A stretch of DNA of 64,000 nucleotides. Source: a virus. Lineage: Duplodnaviria; Caudoviricetes. Below, piece after piece: positions 2,952 to 48,608 of the stretch. The number at the start of each line of letters is the position of its first letter. Position 1 is the stretch's first letter. The notes beneath the pieces are model-generated. The model saw nothing but the letters and a program-made list of their open reading frames with translations. It was not told the origin of the DNA and did not search any database. The stretch covers positions 3,409 to 67,408 of the IMG/VR virus record IMGVR_UViG_3300021387_000104. The stretch is one strand, 5' to 3'. The position numbers and the translations under genes were made by a program.

Positions 2952-3254
2952 ATGTTTAGCAAGAAAGAAAACACCGAACCGAAACTGAACGAAGAACAAA
3001 GGAACGCGCCTATGCCTTATTATGTGCATGAGGGCGAAATGTACCGCGCGGAACGGATTCAAAAGCGGCTTTGGATTGTTATTATCCTCCTGATTGTCAT
3101 TCTGGTCGGCACAAATACGGGGTGGATCATATACGAAAGCCAGTTTGAGGATGTTTCCGTAGACCAGATGGTAGATACTGGCGAAGGCGACGCATACGTG
3201 ACAGGCGTAGGAGATTTGAATTATGGCAAAGATCAGGCAGGTAATCCGAATTAG
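2952..3254 (+). CDS. Hypothetical membrane protein
   Basis: ORF with RBS and a central TM helix (LWIVIILLIVILVG). Confidence 0.65.
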   Translation: MFSKKENTEPKLNEEQRNAPMPYYVHEGEMYRAERIQKRLWIVIILLIVILVGTNTGWIIYESQFEDVSVDQMVDTGEGDAYVTGVGDLNYGKDQAGNPN

Positions 3255-7317: not shown

Positions 7318-8745
7318 TTACCAAGTGTATTCTGAAATGGTCTTTTCAAGCGTTCCTTCACCTTGCTCTGCCAGACGGATGAAATCAAACACCTTTTCAG
7401 ACCATCCTGCTATGATGTTTGTCTTTGGTCCGTGGAACTGCTGTGTACCATAGCCTTGCAGGTCGATAGCGTGTACCCAGATGTCGTTGCCAGACTTCCT
7501 GCGGTATTGGTCTGCAAGCGATTGTACAGGGGAACTCCATCCACAATTGCACTGATTGTCTGAAATAATGATGATTCGGTCAGCATCTACGCGGTCAGCC
7601 AGCATTTTTTCAAACGGAAGACCCATTGCTGTGCCACCACTGGCGCGCGCTTCATGGACGGTCGTGTGCAGTATGCCGTTTCTGGAAGATATTGGTTGCT
7701 TACTGATGCTGTTGTTGAATGTATAGAAAATGCTGTTATCGCACATCTTGTTCGCGATCAGTCCGAGTAACATACCGATTTCACAGCACTGAATATCAGA
7801 TTTGCTGCTTATAAGACCACTCATCGAACCTGATACATCAACGGCGATTACGGTAGTGCCAGACAGACGCGGCATGTTTTCAATAGATGCTTCTACGGCG
7901 CTTTCAAGAGCGTCATACACGCGGCTGCCGGCGGAGGCAGGGAGATTCTTATAAGCGGAGAGAAAGCGGAACGGAAGCTGCTTGGACTTGTGTACGGCAA
8001 CGGGATCTTCAATGCGGTTAAGCACTTTTTCAATGTTGTCTGGCTTTGCTTCAATGATGTTTCTCAGGTTTCTGAGTAGCGCCATATATCCGACCTTGCC
8101 GCTATTGATAAGTCCCTCCCATGTCTTCTTGTTGTTGCCGTTCTTTGAAAGTTCAGTTTCCCATGTCAGCGGGGTTTCAAGCGTTCCTTCAAGACAACGC
8201 TTCCACATTGCTTCCTGTTCTGCGTCCTTCGGCTTCGGCCTGCACAGGCACAGCAAATCGCGCATTTTTACGCCTTTGCCATCACCCTTATACTTGGCAA
8301 GGGTATATTCATCGAACGTCTTAAGCACGTCGCAAATGCCGTTTCTGACAGAGTTGGGAATGGGCTTGCCGAACGTGTTCAAATAAAAAGACATAATTTC
8401 CGTCACGTCATCGCCGCGCAACGATACGCCACGGATGGTCTCACGCGCGTGTGGCTTGCCTTCAGGCTCATGCGCAAGAAAACCGGTCAGCACGTGCGCA
8501 ACAGAACGCATGTTGAACTCCCTGCGGGCGAACACGGCCAACTTGGAAACAAACTGTGGGTCGGTTTTGATAACGCGCTGGATGGTTTCTGTCATTTCCT
8601 TGCTGTTATCACCGTAGAACTTGCTTTCGTTGAAAAAGCTCGTAAGGACTTGCGTAATAAGCTTTTCCTTGTCATTCATACGGTAAGCGACGTGACCTTC
8701 CTTGTTGGTCGTCTTGATAGTAGCGGTGTTGTTGAACTTTGCCAT
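7318..8745 (-). CDS. rsr: Ro60/TROVE RNA-binding protein with C-terminal vWA domain
   Basis: TROVE motifs (SFFNESKFYG, ARREFNMRS, TWETELS, GYMALLRNLRNI, QLPFRFLSAY), vWA MIDAS DVSGSM and IIIISDNQ; AAAAGGAGGT RBS. Confidence 0.93.
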   Translation of the reverse strand: MAKFNNTATIKTTNKEGHVAYRMNDKEKLITQVLTSFFNESKFYGDNSKEMTETIQRVIKTDPQFVSKLAVFARREFNMRSVAHVLTGFLAHEPEGKPHARETIRGVSLRGDDVTEIMSFYLNTFGKPIPNSVRNGICDVLKTFDEYTLAKYKGDGKGVKMRDLLCLCRPKPKDAEQEAMWKRCLEGTLETPLTWETELSKNGNNKKTWEGLINSGKVGYMALLRNLRNIIEAKPDNIEKVLNRIEDPVAVHKSKQLPFRFLSAYKNLPASAGSRVYDALESAVEASIENMPRLSGTTVIAVDVSGSMSGLISSKSDIQCCEIGMLLGLIANKMCDNSIFYTFNNSISKQPISSRNGILHTTVHEARASGGTAMGLPFEKMLADRVDADRIIIISDNQCNCGWSSPVQSLADQYRRKSGNDIWVHAIDLQGYGTQQFHGPKTNIIAGWSEKVFDFIRLAEQGEGTLEKTISEYTW

Positions 8746-8780
8746 GCAGTACCTCCTTTTACGGTGGACAAAATAAAAAA

Positions 8781-8860
8781 CAAACGCGATAAATCCGCAA
8801 CCGGGTAAGCCAGTGTCGAATTACAAGTTCGATGCATCCGATTACTGCAATGCGCGTTTG
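8781..8860 (-). ncRNA. Array unit E: short stem-closed RNA with the shared CAUUGC/UUUAU motif, no T arm
   Basis: Minus strand: CAAACGCG-CATTGC-A...TTTAT-CGCGTTTG; internal hairpin TCGAA-CTTGTAA-TTCGA. Confidence 0.6.
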
Positions 8861-8870
8861 TCTTTGGTGT

Positions 8871-9018
8871 GAAGCGGATAAAAACGGAAACGGTACGTTT
8901 AGCGCTCTGCCGATTGAGCTACTACGATTACTCATAAAGAGCCACACTCGTAGACGGGGCTCGAACCCGCAACCTCTCGCTTAACAGGCGAAGTAACCTT
9001 TTCCTACAATGCCGCTTC
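8871..9018 (-). ncRNA. Array unit A: circularly permuted tRNA-Asn(GTT)-like RNA (Y RNA/YrlA-like candidate)
   Basis: Minus strand: GAAGCGG-CATTGT...GGTTAC-TTCGC CTGTTAA GCGAG-AGGTT-GCGGG TTCGAGC CCCGT-CTACGA-linker-TCGTAG-TA-GCTC AATCGGCA GAGC...TTTAT-CCGCTTC. Confidence 0.8.
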
Positions 9019-9026
9019 AGTGGCGT

Positions 9027-9163
9027 GATGCTGATAAATTCGATAACAGTACATTTACGGTGTGCTACCATTACACCATCCCACACATATGGGCGTGGGA
9101 GCAGGAATCGAACCTACACTACCGGCACCATAGCGAAGTAACTGTCATCTGCAATGCAGCATC
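9027..9163 (-). ncRNA. Array unit B: circularly permuted tRNA-like RNA
   Basis: Minus strand: GATGCTG-CATTGC...GTTACTTCG...GTAGG TTCGATT CCTGC-TCCCAC-loop-GTGGGA-TG-GTGT AATGGTA GCAC...TTTAT-CAGCATC. Confidence 0.8.
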
Positions 9164-9170
9164 ATTGGCA

Positions 9171-9281
9171 CGGTGCGGATAAAACTTGATTCTGTAAATG
9201 CCAACCATGGCTAAAGACGGAATCGAACCGGCAGTTCGTAAATATGCACACGAAGTAACAGAATCATGCAATGCCACACCG
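9171..9281 (-). ncRNA. Array unit C: reduced unit with T arm only
   Basis: Minus strand: CGGTGTGG-CATTGC-A-TGATTCTG-TTACTTCG...CCGG TTCGATT CCG...CAGAATCA...TTTAT-CCGCACCG. Confidence 0.72.
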
Positions 9282-9283
9282 AA

Positions 9284-9330
9284 CTCTCCCGACAGGGTTT
9301 GAACCTGTGACATTCTGCTTAACAGTCAGG
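9284..9330 (-). pseudogene. 3' half of tRNA-Asn(GTT); left inversion junction
   Basis: Minus strand: CCTGA CTGTTAA GCAGA ATGTC ACAGG TTCAAAC CCTGT CGGGAGA G; no D arm upstream in this orientation. Confidence 0.8.
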
Positions 9331-9470
9331 TGAAAAACCTGAATTTTACAGCGTTTTCAAGCACTATGTTATAAACATGTTATAAACCGGAATACAGTTT
9401 TATCAACACAAATAGTCTTATTACACTGGCTTTGATGACATATTATTGACACAATTGATATATGAACGGG

Positions 9471-9499
9471 TTGCAAAACAAACAAAAGCAGTGTATTAT
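9471..9499 (+). promoter_or_regulatory. Sigma-A promoter inside the putative invertible segment
   Basis: TTGCAA-17 nt-TATTAT with TG before the -10; followed by hairpin CGTGTTCA-CT-TGAACACG. Confidence 0.7.
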
Positions 9500-9521
9500 A
9501 TATGCGTGTTCACTTGAACAC

Positions 9522-9657
9522 GAACGGCATTGCAGGTAACGGTTACTTCAAGCCAGATTTGTGTCAATGGTTCGATTCCATTCCCAGTCCTACGGGCTGG
9601 CGTAGCTCAGATGGTAGAGCAAAATCACGAAAACACCGTTGCCAAATTTATCCGTTT
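9522..9657 (+). ncRNA. Array unit D: circularly permuted tRNA-like RNA (plus strand in this orientation)
   Basis: GAACGG-CATTGC-A-GGTAACGGT-TACTTC...AATGG TTCGATT CCATT-CCCAGTCC TACG GGCTGG-CG-TA-GCTC AGATGGTA GAGC...ACCGTTGCC-AAATTTAT-CCGTTT. Confidence 0.8.
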
Positions 9658-9663
9658 GTCTTA

Positions 9664-9760: not shown

Positions 9761-9836
9761 TCTCCTGTAGCTCAGTCGGTAGAGCGTCTGCCTGTTAATC
9801 AGGGTGTCCCGGGTTCGAGTCCCTGATGGCGCACCA
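9761..9836 (+). pseudogene. Chimeric 76-nt tRNA: Asn(GTT) 5' half joined to an unrelated 3' half; right inversion junction and att core
   Basis: Canonical D arm, T loop and CCA, but the acceptor TCTCCTG/ATGGCGC pairs at only 3 of 7 positions and the anticodon stem TCTGC/TCAGG is imperfect. Confidence 0.8.
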
Positions 9837-9840
9837 CATG

Positions 9841-9884
9841 AAAGCCCCGAAAGTTTCGAGAGATTCAGAACTTTCGGGGTTTTT
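9841..9884. terminator. Hairpin terminator downstream of the att core and integrase
   Basis: AAA-GCCCCGAAAGTT...AACTTTCGGGGT-TTTT. Confidence 0.75.
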
Positions 9885-9996
9885 CCTGTTATAAACGGGT
9901 TCTTCAATAATTCTCTGAAATTCCCTCTGGTTTATAACACGGTTTATAACATTAGATTACGGGTTTTTTGGCGAAATCTACGACACTATTCTGACA

Positions 9997-11061
9997 CTAT
10001 TTGATCTGGTCGGTAATCGCCTTTAGGTCGGATAAGGTAGAAGACTGATAGTGCTTCTTGGTGGTCTCGTAACTGGCGTGGCCCATCAGTTCGGCCTTGT
10101 CTTTGTCCGCCCCGACGAGTTTTTTAATTTTATTGGAATAGGTGTGTCTGGTGGCATATGGTACTTTGCCAACGATGCCGAGCTTGTCCATCATGGGATG
10201 CCAGATGAATTTGTTAAAGTACCTGGTAGGCATGACGGAATAAGTGCCGGTGGGTTTGCCTTTCCGGTCAAGGTCGATGCGCGGGAAAAGCAAATCCGTA
10301 CCATCAATCGCAAGGCAACGCTCGATAATCGGCTGCACACTGGATGGAATGGGAACTATACGGGTTTTTCCGGCCTCGGTCTTGATGCCGCCAGCAATGT
10401 AGTGTACGCTGTTTTCGGTATAGTAGTCAGACTTTTTGAAATTGAAAAACTCAGTTGGGCGATGACCAAGGTAGCATAAGGCGACTACATAATCAGCATA
10501 AGGAAGTCCTGATTCGGAGATACGTTTCAGTTCTTCCTCGCTTAGTGGTTCGTAATGTGTGGTCTCCTCATCGCCGGTGTAGAGGTTCGCGGCATTGTTC
10601 TTATAGATTTGGTCATCGTCGATGGCGTATTTGAAAACCAGTCCGGCAGTGACCTTCATCAAATCTTTTGTGCGTCTTCCTTTAGAGCAATTATCTATAC
10701 AGTTTTGCAAGTCAACCGCGCTGATCATGTCGATCTTCGTATAATGCAGTGGTTTGAAATGAATATTAAACACAGATGCATAGCCTTCCATGGTCTTTGC
10801 AGACACACGGTCAGCATATGACGCAGACCAACTTTTGAAGTTGTCAAGGAACGTCTTTGGTGGATGTTTGACGCGCTTTTTTTCAATGAGATCAGATAGA
10901 TAGTTCATCGCGTCTTTTTTCTTTTCAAAGCCGCCCTTGGTCTTCCAAACCGGCTTCAAACCAGCTTTGTTATCGGCAGGCTCATAGTGATCCACAACGC
11001 GTGCCGTCCAGGTGTTTCCGCGTTTATAGACGTTCCCTGTGCCGTTGGGGCGTTTGGACAT
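9997..11061 (-). CDS. int: Tyrosine integrase
   Basis: N-terminal arm-binding-like KRPNGTGNVYKR; catalytic GHRPTE (R), KTEAG (K), YATRHTY, LMGH and HY; AAGGAG RBS. Confidence 0.93.
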   Translation of the reverse strand: MSKRPNGTGNVYKRGNTWTARVVDHYEPADNKAGLKPVWKTKGGFEKKKDAMNYLSDLIEKKRVKHPPKTFLDNFKSWSASYADRVSAKTMEGYASVFNIHFKPLHYTKIDMISAVDLQNCIDNCSKGRRTKDLMKVTAGLVFKYAIDDDQIYKNNAANLYTGDEETTHYEPLSEEELKRISESGLPYADYVVALCYLGHRPTEFFNFKKSDYYTENSVHYIAGGIKTEAGKTRIVPIPSSVQPIIERCLAIDGTDLLFPRIDLDRKGKPTGTYSVMPTRYFNKFIWHPMMDKLGIVGKVPYATRHTYSNKIKKLVGADKDKAELMGHASYETTKKHYQSSTLSDLKAITDQIK

Positions 11062-11066
11062 ATCAT

Positions 11067-11711
11067 TCACTCCTTAAACATTCGCGTGAAGCCGACCGGC
11101 TTGCCTAAGATGCGAACGATGTTGTACTCGTCGAATGGCATAAACATAGGCTGATATGATGGATTGTCACTAACCAGCAACAGACCGTTATTCTGGCGAT
11201 AGACGTGTTTGAGCGTCGCGCTGTCGTCGAGCAATACGACAAGCACTTGTCCGTCATAGTCGATGGTATCTTGTGCGCGGATGAATACCACATCGCCGTC
11301 AAGAAAGTTGGGGCTCATGCTGTCACCGCTGATGCGGAGGGCGTAGTCTGCTTTGCACGGGCAGTCGATATAAGCATCATAACTCTCCTCGGCCAGGATC
11401 GGAGTGCCGGCGGCGACGGAGCCGATAAGGGGAACTTTGCTGAATGAGTCGGGGTTGATTTCCTTTAAACCGTTTGGCAAGCTGGTTTTATTCCATCCCA
11501 AGACAGCGGGAACATCAAGCGACAGCACTTTACATATTTTGACGATACTATCGAGAGAGAATTTTTGAGTTTTCCCTGTGACCCATCGATTAATAGACGA
11601 CTTGGCAACGCCTGTCTTTTCGCCAAGTTGCTCATAAGTAATTCCTTCAGAGGTCATGGCTTCAAGTATCCGTTGCCTTATGACCGGGGCTAATACTTCA
11701 TAATTATCCAT
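11067..11711 (-). CDS. cI: CI-like repressor (HTH plus S24 autoproteolytic domain)
   Basis: XRE HTH; VPLIGSVAAG cleavage region; GDSM (Ser) and TLKH (Lys). Confidence 0.92.
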   Translation of the reverse strand: MDNYEVLAPVIRQRILEAMTSEGITYEQLGEKTGVAKSSINRWVTGKTQKFSLDSIVKICKVLSLDVPAVLGWNKTSLPNGLKEINPDSFSKVPLIGSVAAGTPILAEESYDAYIDCPCKADYALRISGDSMSPNFLDGDVVFIRAQDTIDYDGQVLVVLLDDSATLKHVYRQNNGLLLVSDNPSYQPMFMPFDEYNIVRILGKPVGFTRMFKE

Positions 11712-48514: not shown

Positions 48515-48608
48515 AACAACTTTGGCGGATAGATCGACGGGTCGAAAAGTGGAGTGCCTTGCCACCTGCCGCCAATTAAAAAAGGCAAACCTATTAGGAG
48601 GCAATAGG

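What the first reader, a model, noticed from the sequence alone, without database searches (positions are those of the whole stretch)
8781..9657. Shared terminal motif defines an RNA family: stem-CAUUG(C/U)A...UUUAU-stem with GUUACUUC
Seen: five units have unrelated but perfectly or near-perfectly paired closing stems (CAAACGCG/CGCGTTTG, GAAGCGG/CCGCTTC, GATGCTG/CAGCATC, CGGTGTGG/CCGCACCG, GAACGG/CCGTTT). All have an invariant internal loop, CATTG(C/T)A opposite TTTAT, then a second variable stem. Units A-D also share GTTACTTC. This is natural covariation inside one genome. The interiors differ: full permuted tRNA core (A, B, D), T arm only (C), plain hairpin (E). Inference: a constant protein-docking handle, probably for Ro60, with variable effector domains. 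It does not match the bulged-helix Ro-binding motif that I know from described Y RNAs.
Basis: partly seen in the sequence, partly recalled or inferred. Interest (0 to 1): 0.78.

Follow-up and report, generated by a model that had tools for sequence, protein, structure and literature searches.

The report
Phage Ro60 partner RNAs, variant handle
A temperate phage of rumen or gut Clostridia carries a Ro60 (Rsr) gene and five small Y-type RNAs beside it that share one docking "handle" but have different, mostly tRNA-like bodies; this is a known kind of RNA-protein pair whose handle spelling has not been described.

Summary
A covariance model finds exactly five units in the 64-kb window: four in tandem on the minus strand directly upstream of a TROVE/Ro60 gene (7318-8745, minus), and one on the plus strand. 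All five share G-CAUUG(C/U)A ... UUUAU-C between two variable stems.

The same architecture recurs about 100 times in 24 related loci (TROVE 63-76% identical). It always lies on the TROVE strand, within about 1 kb upstream, with 2-7 units per locus.

The "internal loop" is partly a helix. Its 2nd and 3rd 5' bases pair with the last two 3' bases (A-U 65, G-C 5; U-A 54, G-C 16; no mispairs in 70 units). That leaves a bulged pyrimidine, two base pairs, a small internal loop with an invariant G.U, and then an 8-bp stem.

This resembles the bulged-helix layout of the classical Ro-binding site as I recall it. However, the published CGAA/GNCGAA signature is absent.

The units are divergent YrlA-type Y RNAs. 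Rfam YrlA matches only below threshold, and UUAC corresponds to YrlA's conserved YUAY.

Verdict: a new variant of a known kind. Rsr binding is inferred, not shown. This scan has already noted similar phage Ro60-like genes with handle-RNA arrays on other DNA, with other handle motifs.

The parts
9171..9281 (-). Y RNA-like unit 1 of the tandem array. Handle plus a body with a T arm only.
   Evidence: R1 model 74.4 bits, E 4e-19. MFE fold keeps both stems, z -4.5.
9026..9164 (-). Y RNA-like unit 2. Handle plus T arm, loop-closed acceptor-like stem and a variant D arm.
   Evidence: R1 87.9 bits. Rfam YrlA 23 bits, E 4.9e-4 in the phage genome. Fold z -3.6.
8870..9019 (-). Y RNA-like unit 3. Handle (CAUUGUA variant), an anticodon-arm-like hairpin (loop CUGUUAA), T arm, closed acceptor-like stem and D arm.
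   Evidence: R1 96.3 bits. Rfam YrlA 28.4 bits. Fold.
8781..8860 (-). Y RNA-like unit 4, the last before rsr. Handle plus a single hairpin, with GAUGCAUC in place of GUUACUUC.
   Evidence: R1 51.2 bits, E 2e-12. Orthologous short last units occur in most related loci.
8766..8780 (-). U-rich run directly after the last unit's closing stem, ahead of the rsr ribosome-binding site. Possible terminator or attenuator.
   Evidence: Sequence. Terminator-like site at 8799..8785 plus a T run. A similar U-run follows the last unit in relatives. The function is inferred.
7318..8745 (-). rsr / Ro60 ortholog (475 aa; TROVE + Ro60 vWA domains).
   Evidence: Pfam PF05731 E 4.5e-32 and PF25045 E 1.1e-10. Nearest solved structure is Thermus phage phiLo Ro60, 9L5Y/9KOP, E 2.4e-34.
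9520..9659 (+). Y RNA-like unit 5, on the opposite strand. Handle plus a complete T arm / closed acceptor / D arm body.
   Evidence: R1 90.0 bits. Best Rfam YrlA match in the phage, 33.7 bits, E 4e-7.
9343..9372 (-). Candidate sigma-70-type promoter for the minus-strand array (weak consensus match).
   Evidence: 9 of 12 positions match. The number of sites found is not above the shuffle expectation, so this is only a lead.
9471..9499 (+). Candidate promoter for plus-strand unit 5 (weak consensus match).
   Evidence: TTGCAA-17-TATTAT, ending about 20 nt before the unit. Only a lead.

Best explanation
The five units are the Y RNAs (YrlA type) of a phage-encoded Ro60/Rsr.

Shown: each RNA closes its 5' and 3' ends into a two-stem rod. 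Between the stems lies a conserved module: a closing G-C pair, a bulged pyrimidine, two Watson-Crick pairs, and a small internal loop (U-G-Y-A opposite G-N-W-U-U-Y) that contains an invariant G.U. An 8-bp stem and UUAC follow.

Inferred: this module is the site where the Rsr ring docks on its outer surface. The other end of each RNA (a tRNA-like core, a T arm alone, or a hairpin) would recruit different host partners, such as tRNA-binding enzymes or PNPase. One phage protein could thus be tethered to, or gated by, several adaptors.

Also inferred: the four tandem units are probably made as one precursor together with or just ahead of rsr and trimmed back to the closing stems, and the fifth has its own promoter.
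For: - Context: a TROVE + Ro60-vWA gene starts 36 nt downstream of the last unit.
- Specificity in relatives: in 24 loci with TROVE 63-76% identical, 99 anchored units all lie on the TROVE strand within about 1 kb upstream. The R1 model gives 119 hits over the 30 sources searched, which include the three distant TROVE phage loci. Outside the window every hit is on the TROVE strand, and in the window there are exactly five.
- Specificity in whole genomes: in five whole MAG genomes all hits but one lie on the TROVE contig. None were found in 150 other genomes of the same order.
- Control from the viral scan: of 116 viral contigs matching the 5' motif, the full handle was present only in the six loci that encode this TROVE (five of the six) and in one short fragment.
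- Structure: stem 1 is 95.9% paired and stem 2 is 96.9% paired, with compensatory changes at 14 of 15 pairs. The two loop pairs have no mispair (AU 65 / GC 5; UA 54 / GC 16). The covariation score is 0.539 against 0.146 for shuffles (0 of 500 as high) and 0.06-0.11 for slid partners. RNAalifold independently predicts the bulge plus 2 bp.
- Family link: Rfam YrlA matches at E 4e-7, 1.3e-5 and 4.9e-4 in the phage genome. R1 hits a Rhizobium-phage YrlA at 58 bits with the same framing: a 7-nt strand, an 8-bp stem, then UUACUUCG. UUAC corresponds to the conserved YUAY / 23UA24 of YrlA (PMC4201824; 10.1101/312249).
- Precedent: Y RNAs lie upstream of rsr on the same strand in D. radiodurans and in Thermus phage phiLo, whose Ro60 binds Yrl1 and Yrl2 (10.1101/312249; PMC12135203).
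Against: - No binding data exist for this clade.
- The published Rsr-recognition signature (GNCGAAN0-1G, or 'CGAA') is absent from all 72 non-redundant handles, so the protein-RNA contacts cannot simply be carried over from known complexes.
- All Rfam YrlA scores are below the gathering score (at most 33.7 in the window and 48.1 in relatives, against 69).
- Counted on a tree, the compensatory switches in the two loop pairs are few: 6 and 2 on the best tree, and 2 and 1 on well-supported branches. A sign test cannot reach significance.
- Stems 1 and 2 were used to call the units, so their percent-paired values are inflated by selection.
- One unit is on the strand opposite to rsr.
- The promoter and terminator calls are weak.
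Confidence: 0.72

Rival explanations
1. The handle is mainly a maturation signal. It would be a conserved double-stranded clamp with a bulge that a host or phage RNase (RNase III, E, P or Z type) recognises to cut units out of the polycistronic precursor. Rsr would bind elsewhere or only transiently.
For: The units are separated by spacers of only about 4-10 nt, and each begins and ends flush at the closing stem. M. smegmatis YrlA is an RNase P substrate (PMC4201824). Both strands of the module are conserved, as expected for a structure-specific nuclease.
Against: The plus-strand unit stands alone with the same handle. The handle co-occurs strictly with one TROVE clade rather than with any nuclease gene. 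The conserved letters lie in the inner module, not at the unit boundaries. Processing and Rsr docking do not exclude each other.
Confidence: 0.12
2. The RNAs are tRNA decoys that act without Rsr, for example by soaking up host anticodon nucleases or tRNA-modifying enzymes. The two-stem rod would only make them nuclease-resistant.
For: The bodies are tRNA-like. In addition, 27 of 70 units carry a 5-bp hairpin with a 7-nt anticodon-like loop directly after UUAC. Phages often carry tRNA-related counter-defence cargo (general knowledge).
Against: This does not explain why hairpin-only and T-arm-only units keep the same handle. It also does not explain why the RNAs are found only beside this TROVE gene. 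A stabilising clamp has no need for invariant unpaired letters.
Confidence: 0.08
3. The array, or at least its last unit, is a cis-acting leader of the rsr mRNA. It would act as a terminator or attenuator, or as an operator through which Rsr controls its own synthesis.
For: The last unit ends about 30-40 nt before the rsr start codon and is followed by a U-run and an RBS, both in the window and in relatives.
Against: This cannot explain 2-7 diverse units per locus, the tRNA-like bodies, or the plus-strand unit. At most it is an added role of one unit.
Confidence: 0.05

Closest known systems
YrlA-type bacterial and phage Y RNAs (Rfam RF02553; Chen et al. 2014, PMC4201824; Wang et al. 2018 preprint 10.1101/312249)
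   Same: They are encoded next to rsr. The 5' and 3' ends pair into a long stem that carries the protein-binding module. The effector end mimics tRNA in the same permuted order (T arm, loop-closed acceptor-like stem, UA, D arm). The conserved YUAY (here UUAC) follows the stem. Several paralogs sit per locus, some without the tRNA-like part, like YrlB. Model matches run in both directions.
   Different: There is no GNCGAA/CGAA; the 7-nt strand reads Y-R-K-U-G-Y-A. [quoted passage not shown] Arrays have 2-7 units. All scores are below the Rfam gathering score. Some units carry an anticodon-arm-like hairpin.
Metazoan Y RNAs and D. radiodurans Yrn1 (Ro-binding bulged helix; Green 1998 and Stein 2005, as cited in PMC4201824 and PMC12135203)
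   Same: The layout is a terminal stem, a single bulged pyrimidine on the 5' strand, two further base pairs, then an internal loop, with both strands conserved. A G.U wobble is invariant within the module. This comparison with the classical helix rests on my knowledge of the published structure, not on a test here.
   Different: The letters differ: G-G-U-C-C-G-A and its partner strand in the classical site, against G-C-A-U-U-G-C-A / U-U-U-A-U-C here. The bodies are tRNA-like, which metazoan Y RNAs are not.
Thermus phage phiLo Ro60 with Yrl1 and Yrl2 (PMC12135203; PDB 9L5Y, 9KOP)
   Same: It is the closest solved relative of the protein (E 2.4e-34). It is also a phage Ro60 with its Y RNA-like genes directly upstream. 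Binding and a PNPase ternary complex were shown in vitro for that system.
   Different: phiLo has two RNAs of the CGAA type with simple hairpins. Here there are five RNAs with another handle and tRNA-like bodies, in a temperate phage of anaerobic Clostridia.

Membership tests
Bacterial/phage Y RNA of the YrlA type | Encoded within about 4 kb of a Ro60/Rsr (TROVE) gene, usually on the same strand | tested here: met
   All five units lie within 920 bp of the TROVE start, four of them on its strand. The same holds in 24 related loci.
Bacterial/phage Y RNA of the YrlA type | 5' and 3' ends pair into a long stem that holds the Ro-binding module | tested here: met
   Stem 1 and stem 2 have compensatory changes at 14 of 15 pairs. 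The RNAalifold consensus and the single-sequence folds agree.
Bacterial/phage Y RNA of the YrlA type | GNCGAAN0-1G ('CGAA') motif on the 5' strand | tested here: not met
   None of 72 non-redundant units has it. The 7-nt strand is CAUUGCA, CAGUGCA, CGUUGUA, UAUUGCA and similar. Distant phage YrlAs with the same framing do have UUGCGAA.
Bacterial/phage Y RNA of the YrlA type | tRNA-like module: T arm, loop-closed acceptor-like stem, UA, D arm | tested here: met
   It is complete in three of five window units, T arm only in one, and absent in one. The same mix occurs in relatives.
Bacterial/phage Y RNA of the YrlA type | Conserved YUAY after the stem | tested here: met
   UUAC is present in four of five window units. 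Among 72 non-redundant units the box G/A-U/A-U-A-C-U-U-C occurs in 70. It is also present in Gordonia and Rhizobium phage YrlAs.
Rfam RF02553 (YrlA) | Score at or above the gathering score (69 bits) | tested here: not met
   The best score is 33.7 bits in the window and 48.1 in relatives. YrlAs of named TROVE phages also score only 36-44 bits.
Y RNA (any) | Bound and stabilised by Ro60/Rsr in vivo | not testable with these tools
   This needs RIP, CLIP or EMSA.
Classical Ro-binding bulged helix | Bulged pyrimidine on the 5' strand followed by two base pairs and an internal loop | tested here: inconclusive
   The geometry is supported: bulge C 54 / U 14 / A 4, then two pairs with no mispair. 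Independent switches are few, and which letters correspond to CGA of the classical site could not be settled.

The most novel reading that the evidence does not exclude
The array is a set of interchangeable adaptors. Through one clade-specific handle, a single phage Ro60 ring would be docked to several different host tRNA-handling or tRNA-cleaving proteins. The units that keep an anticodon-arm-like hairpin (loops reading GUU, UGU, GAU, CUU and others) would serve as decoys or guides against particular anticodon nucleases. On this reading the Y RNA array is a programmable phage counter-defence device, and the departure of the handle from CGAA marks a private protein-RNA code that keeps the phage RNAs off any host Rsr.
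Probability: 0.1. Interest if true: 0.8.

Novelty: new variant of a known kind. Interest (0 to 1): 0.42.

Why it matters
Ro60-Y RNA particles are conserved from bacteria to humans, yet how bacterial Rsr recognises its RNAs is known only from one short 5'-strand motif.

This clade offers about 100 natural handle variants. Both strands are conserved, the motif has a different spelling, and there is covariation inside the module. Together these give a ready-made mutational map for testing which features Rsr reads: the bulge, the two pairs, the invariant G.U, and the unpaired U-G-Y-A.

It also shows that a temperate phage can carry the protein and a whole set of adaptor RNAs as one mobile cassette. 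In addition, the current Rfam YrlA model misses such RNAs at its threshold.

Tried and rejected
- DNA similarity to named phages found only tRNA-like matches. No named phage has a TROVE more than 37% identical.
- A viral-contig scan with the 5' motif returned mostly chance hits, because 14 specified bases are too few for that collection. It became useful only after filtering for the 3' motif and for TROVE.
- ARAGORN finds no tRNA in the window.
- The supplement of Chen 2014 and the 2020 review (PMC10870794) are not held. I therefore could not check whether any Clostridia or their phages were in the published lists. The full text of the library gave no paper linking Y RNAs to Ruminococcaceae or Clostridia genomes.
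- The genes flanking the cassette have no Pfam or PHROG function and are not conserved among the loci, so no partner enzyme could be proposed.
- I tried two ways of aligning the module to the canonical motif. One treats C-AU-UGC as the counterpart of C-GA-A-UGC in the Rfam consensus. The other treats UGCA as the positional counterpart of CGAA in Rhizobium-phage units. I could not decide between them.
- The tree-aware count of compensatory events is too small for a significance test.
- A repeat or mobile-element reading was rejected: the stems covary while the unpaired letters stay fixed, and all copies sit on one strand beside one gene.

Full report
**What is there.** The window belongs to a complete 67,408-bp virus record with direct terminal repeats. 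It carries an integrase (9997-11070, minus), a CI-type S24 repressor and an endolysin-like gene, so it is a temperate phage.

On the minus strand, four units follow each other with spacers of a few bases: 9171-9281, 9026-9164, 8870-9019 and 8781-8860. After a U-rich run and a ribosome-binding site comes a 475-aa ORF (8745 to 7318). It matches Pfam TROVE (E 4.5e-32) and the Ro60 vWA domain (E 1.1e-10). A fifth unit lies on the plus strand at 9520-9659.

Four units have GUUACUUC; the hairpin unit has GAUGCAUC at that place.

Single-sequence folds keep both stems in all five units. They also confirm the body types, as does the model alignment: three complete T arm / closed acceptor-like stem / D arm cores, one T arm only, and one hairpin.

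**Is it more than chance?** The 8-mer GCATTGYA alone is not enriched in the window (10 matches against 7.4 expected). The composite feature is enriched. A covariance model (R1) built from an alignment that is mostly relatives finds exactly these five sites in 64 kb, at E 2e-25 to 2e-12. The next best hit has E 0.97.

**Relatives.** The TROVE protein has relatives at 63-76% identity in 5 IMG/VR contigs and 19 MAG contigs. The MAGs are rumen and gut Clostridia (Acutalibacteraceae, Ruminococcaceae, Oscillospiraceae), plus one Erysipelotrichaceae.
- Anchoring only on the box N-W-U-[A/C]-C-U-U-C, an 8-nt motif G-Y-R-K-U-G-Y-A lies exactly 16 nt upstream in 99 places. All are on the TROVE strand, within about 1 kb upstream of the gene, with 2-7 per locus.
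- R1 gives 119 hits over 30 sources, including the three distant TROVE phage loci. Outside the window all are on the TROVE strand.
- In five whole MAG genomes every hit but one lies on the TROVE contig.
- In 150 further genomes sampled from the same order none was found. This search used strict filters, so it shows "not found in those searched" rather than absence.
- A scan of viral contigs with the 5' motif acted as an accidental control. Of 116 matching stretches, the complete handle with a 3' strand of the ...UUYAU type was present only in loci encoding this TROVE clade (five of the six that do) and in one short fragment. The rest were chance matches with unrelated 3' strands.
- Flanking genes are not conserved among the loci. 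The array plus rsr therefore travels as a cassette.

**Anatomy of the handle.** I aligned 70 non-redundant units (A1) and counted pairs.
- Stem 1 is 95.9% paired, with double-sided changes at 7 of 8 pairs. Its last pair is G-C in 70 of 70 units.
- Stem 2 is 96.9% paired, with double-sided changes at 7 of 7 pairs.
- The whole-structure covariation score is 0.539. Shuffles give 0.146 (0 of 500 as high) and slid partners give 0.06-0.11.
- Because I called units by requiring at least 6 of 7 pairs in each stem, the percent-paired values of the stems are inflated. The diversity of pair types is not.

The informative result lies inside the supposed loop, which played no part in unit calling.
- The 2nd base of the 5' strand and the last base of the 3' strand are A-U in 65 units and G-C in 5.
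- The 3rd base and the penultimate 3' base are U-A in 54 units and G-C in 16.
- There is not one mispair or wobble intermediate.
- RNAalifold independently predicts these two pairs, leaves the first base bulged, and extends stem 2 to 8 bp by pairing the G of GUUAC (G-C 61, C-G 3).
- The bulged base is C in 54, U in 14 and A in 4 of 72 units. The G at position 5 faces a U in all units.

The module is therefore: closing G-C, bulged pyrimidine, two pairs, internal loop U-G-Y-A opposite G-N-W-U-U-Y, then an 8-bp stem and UUACUUCG.

One caution applies. On a tree of the units built without these columns, the fewest switches are 6 and 2 for the two pairs. Only 2 and 1 of these fall on well-supported branches, which is too few for a sign test. 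The pairing is the simplest reading of a perfect association in Watson-Crick register next to stem 1, but it rests on few independent events.

**What it is.** Rfam has no match at gathering thresholds. With E-value reporting, YrlA (RF02553) matches three of the units: 33.7, 28.4 and 23 bits, or E 4e-7, 1.3e-5 and 4.9e-4 over the phage genome. Units of relatives reach 48 bits.
- The gathering score of 69 is strict. YrlAs beside the TROVE genes of Gordonia phage Neville and Rhizobium phage RHph_TM30 score only 44 and 36-37 bits.
- In the other direction, R1 hits a Rhizobium-phage unit at 58 bits over its full length. The framing is the same: stem, 7-nt strand, 8-bp stem, UUACUUCG. There the 7-nt strand reads UUGCGAA.
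- GUUACUUC also occurs in the Gordonia and Rhizobium phage RNAs. It contains the YUAY that Chen et al. describe as conserved at the start of the variable loop (PMC4201824), and the 23UA24 of the crystal structure paper (10.1101/312249).
- The permuted order (T arm, loop-closed acceptor-like stem, UA, D arm) is the defining YrlA layout.

These are therefore divergent YrlA-type Y RNAs, together with shorter paralogs that keep only the handle, as YrlB does in Salmonella.

**How the handle compares with the known Ro site.**
- The published bacterial signature is GNCGAAN0-1G on the 5' strand. In the Salmonella and Mycobacterium RNAs only that strand is recognisable (PMC4201824). The phiLo phage paper uses "CGAA" as the hallmark (PMC12135203). 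None of the 72 handles here has it, and here both strands are conserved.
- From what I know of the classical metazoan site (Green 1998 and Stein 2005, cited in those papers), it is a stem, a bulged C, two pairs (G.U and A-U) and an internal loop. The covariation found here gives the same layout with other letters.
- I could not decide which letters correspond. One possibility is that C-AU-UGC is the counterpart of C-GA-A-UGC in the Rfam consensus line. The other is that UGCA is the positional counterpart of CGAA in the Rhizobium-phage units.

**How it most likely works.**
- Shown: the RNAs, their fold, and their exclusive association with one Ro60 clade.
- Established for other systems: Rsr binds the terminal stem module, and the other end of the RNA tethers effectors such as PNPase or gates access to the ring (10.1101/312249). 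A phage Ro60 binds its upstream Yrl RNAs and forms a ternary complex with host PNPase in vitro (PMC12135203). That phage protein is also the nearest solved relative of this one (E 2.4e-34).
- Inferred here: the handle is the Rsr docking site. Positions that vary only as pairs are read as shape. The invariant letters (the closing G-C, U4, G5 facing U, and mostly A7) are read as bases. U-A and G-C versions co-occur within single loci, so one protein must accept both.
- Also inferred: the bodies recruit different host factors. The tandem units are co-transcribed and trimmed to the closing stems, and the U-run after the last unit may attenuate read-through into rsr. The promoter and terminator matches are weak.

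I put 0.72 on this explanation overall. The rivals are a processing signal, Rsr-independent tRNA decoys, and a cis-regulatory leader. They are listed with their tests. The first and the last are compatible with the main reading as additional roles.

**Novelty and context.** Modular Y RNAs next to rsr, including in phages and including several per locus, are known. What I did not find described is this handle spelling, its two-strand conservation with internal covariation, and arrays of up to seven units in prophages of anaerobic Clostridia. The searchable literature is incomplete: the supplement of the 2014 survey is not held.

Earlier notes of this scan report many phage Ro60-like genes with arrays of handle RNAs on other DNA, mostly with a different handle (ACAGCAA type) and more divergent proteins. 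I did not test those notes. They show that the general pattern is recurrent in this scan.

I therefore class the finding as a new variant of a known kind, of moderate interest.

Noticed in passing
window 9761-9833 (+) and 9292-9349 (-): A tRNA-Asn-like sequence (Rfam tRNA 34.3 bits; not called by ARAGORN) has an acceptor 5' strand, UCUCCUG, that does not pair with its own 3' strand. It would pair with CGGGAGA at the end of a tRNA 3'-half-like fragment on the opposite strand. Both copies carry the loop CUGUUAA and lie next to the integrase, which suggests an attP or an inversion.
   Followed up: no
alignment A1 (70 units), e.g. window 8979-8995 (-) and 8822-8838 (-): Directly after UUAC, 27 of 70 units have a 5-bp hairpin with a 7-nt loop (U at loop position 2 in 17 units, purine at position 6 in 25). 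In 19 units it is followed by about 5 nt (AGGUY-like) and the T arm. This looks like a retained anticodon arm rather than a class II variable arm.
   Followed up: partly
window 8746-8780 (-); L006, L008, L010, L013 about 2960-3000: The last unit of each array ends about 30-40 nt before the TROVE start codon and is followed by a U-run and an RBS. This may be an attenuator or an autoregulatory site.
   Followed up: no
L001-L024 flanks: Genes flanking the array-plus-TROVE cassette are not conserved between loci. Only one weak repressor match was found, and the two ORFs downstream of rsr have no Pfam or PHROG family. The cassette behaves like mobile cargo.
   Followed up: partly
G002:C148:27648-27806: One R1 hit (47 bits) lies on a contig other than the TROVE contig of that MAG. 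It could be an orphan unit or a second locus.
   Followed up: no
L145 4011-5039 versus 8155-9597: In this viral contig the units lie about 3 kb upstream of the TROVE gene instead of abutting it.
   Followed up: no
window 48522-48586 (+): An int-alpA RNA (RF02996) scores 46.3 bits, above its gathering score.
   Followed up: no
window 9365-9390 and 9880-9950: Repeated GTTATAAAC-type words flank the RNA region on both sides. They could be operators or integrase arm sites.
   Followed up: no
L028, L029 (named TROVE phages): Rfam's YrlA gathering score (69 bits) also misses the Y RNA-like units beside the TROVE genes of Gordonia phage Neville and Rhizobium phage RHph_TM30 (36-44 bits). The Rhizobium phage has at least five units in tandem.
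   Followed up: partly
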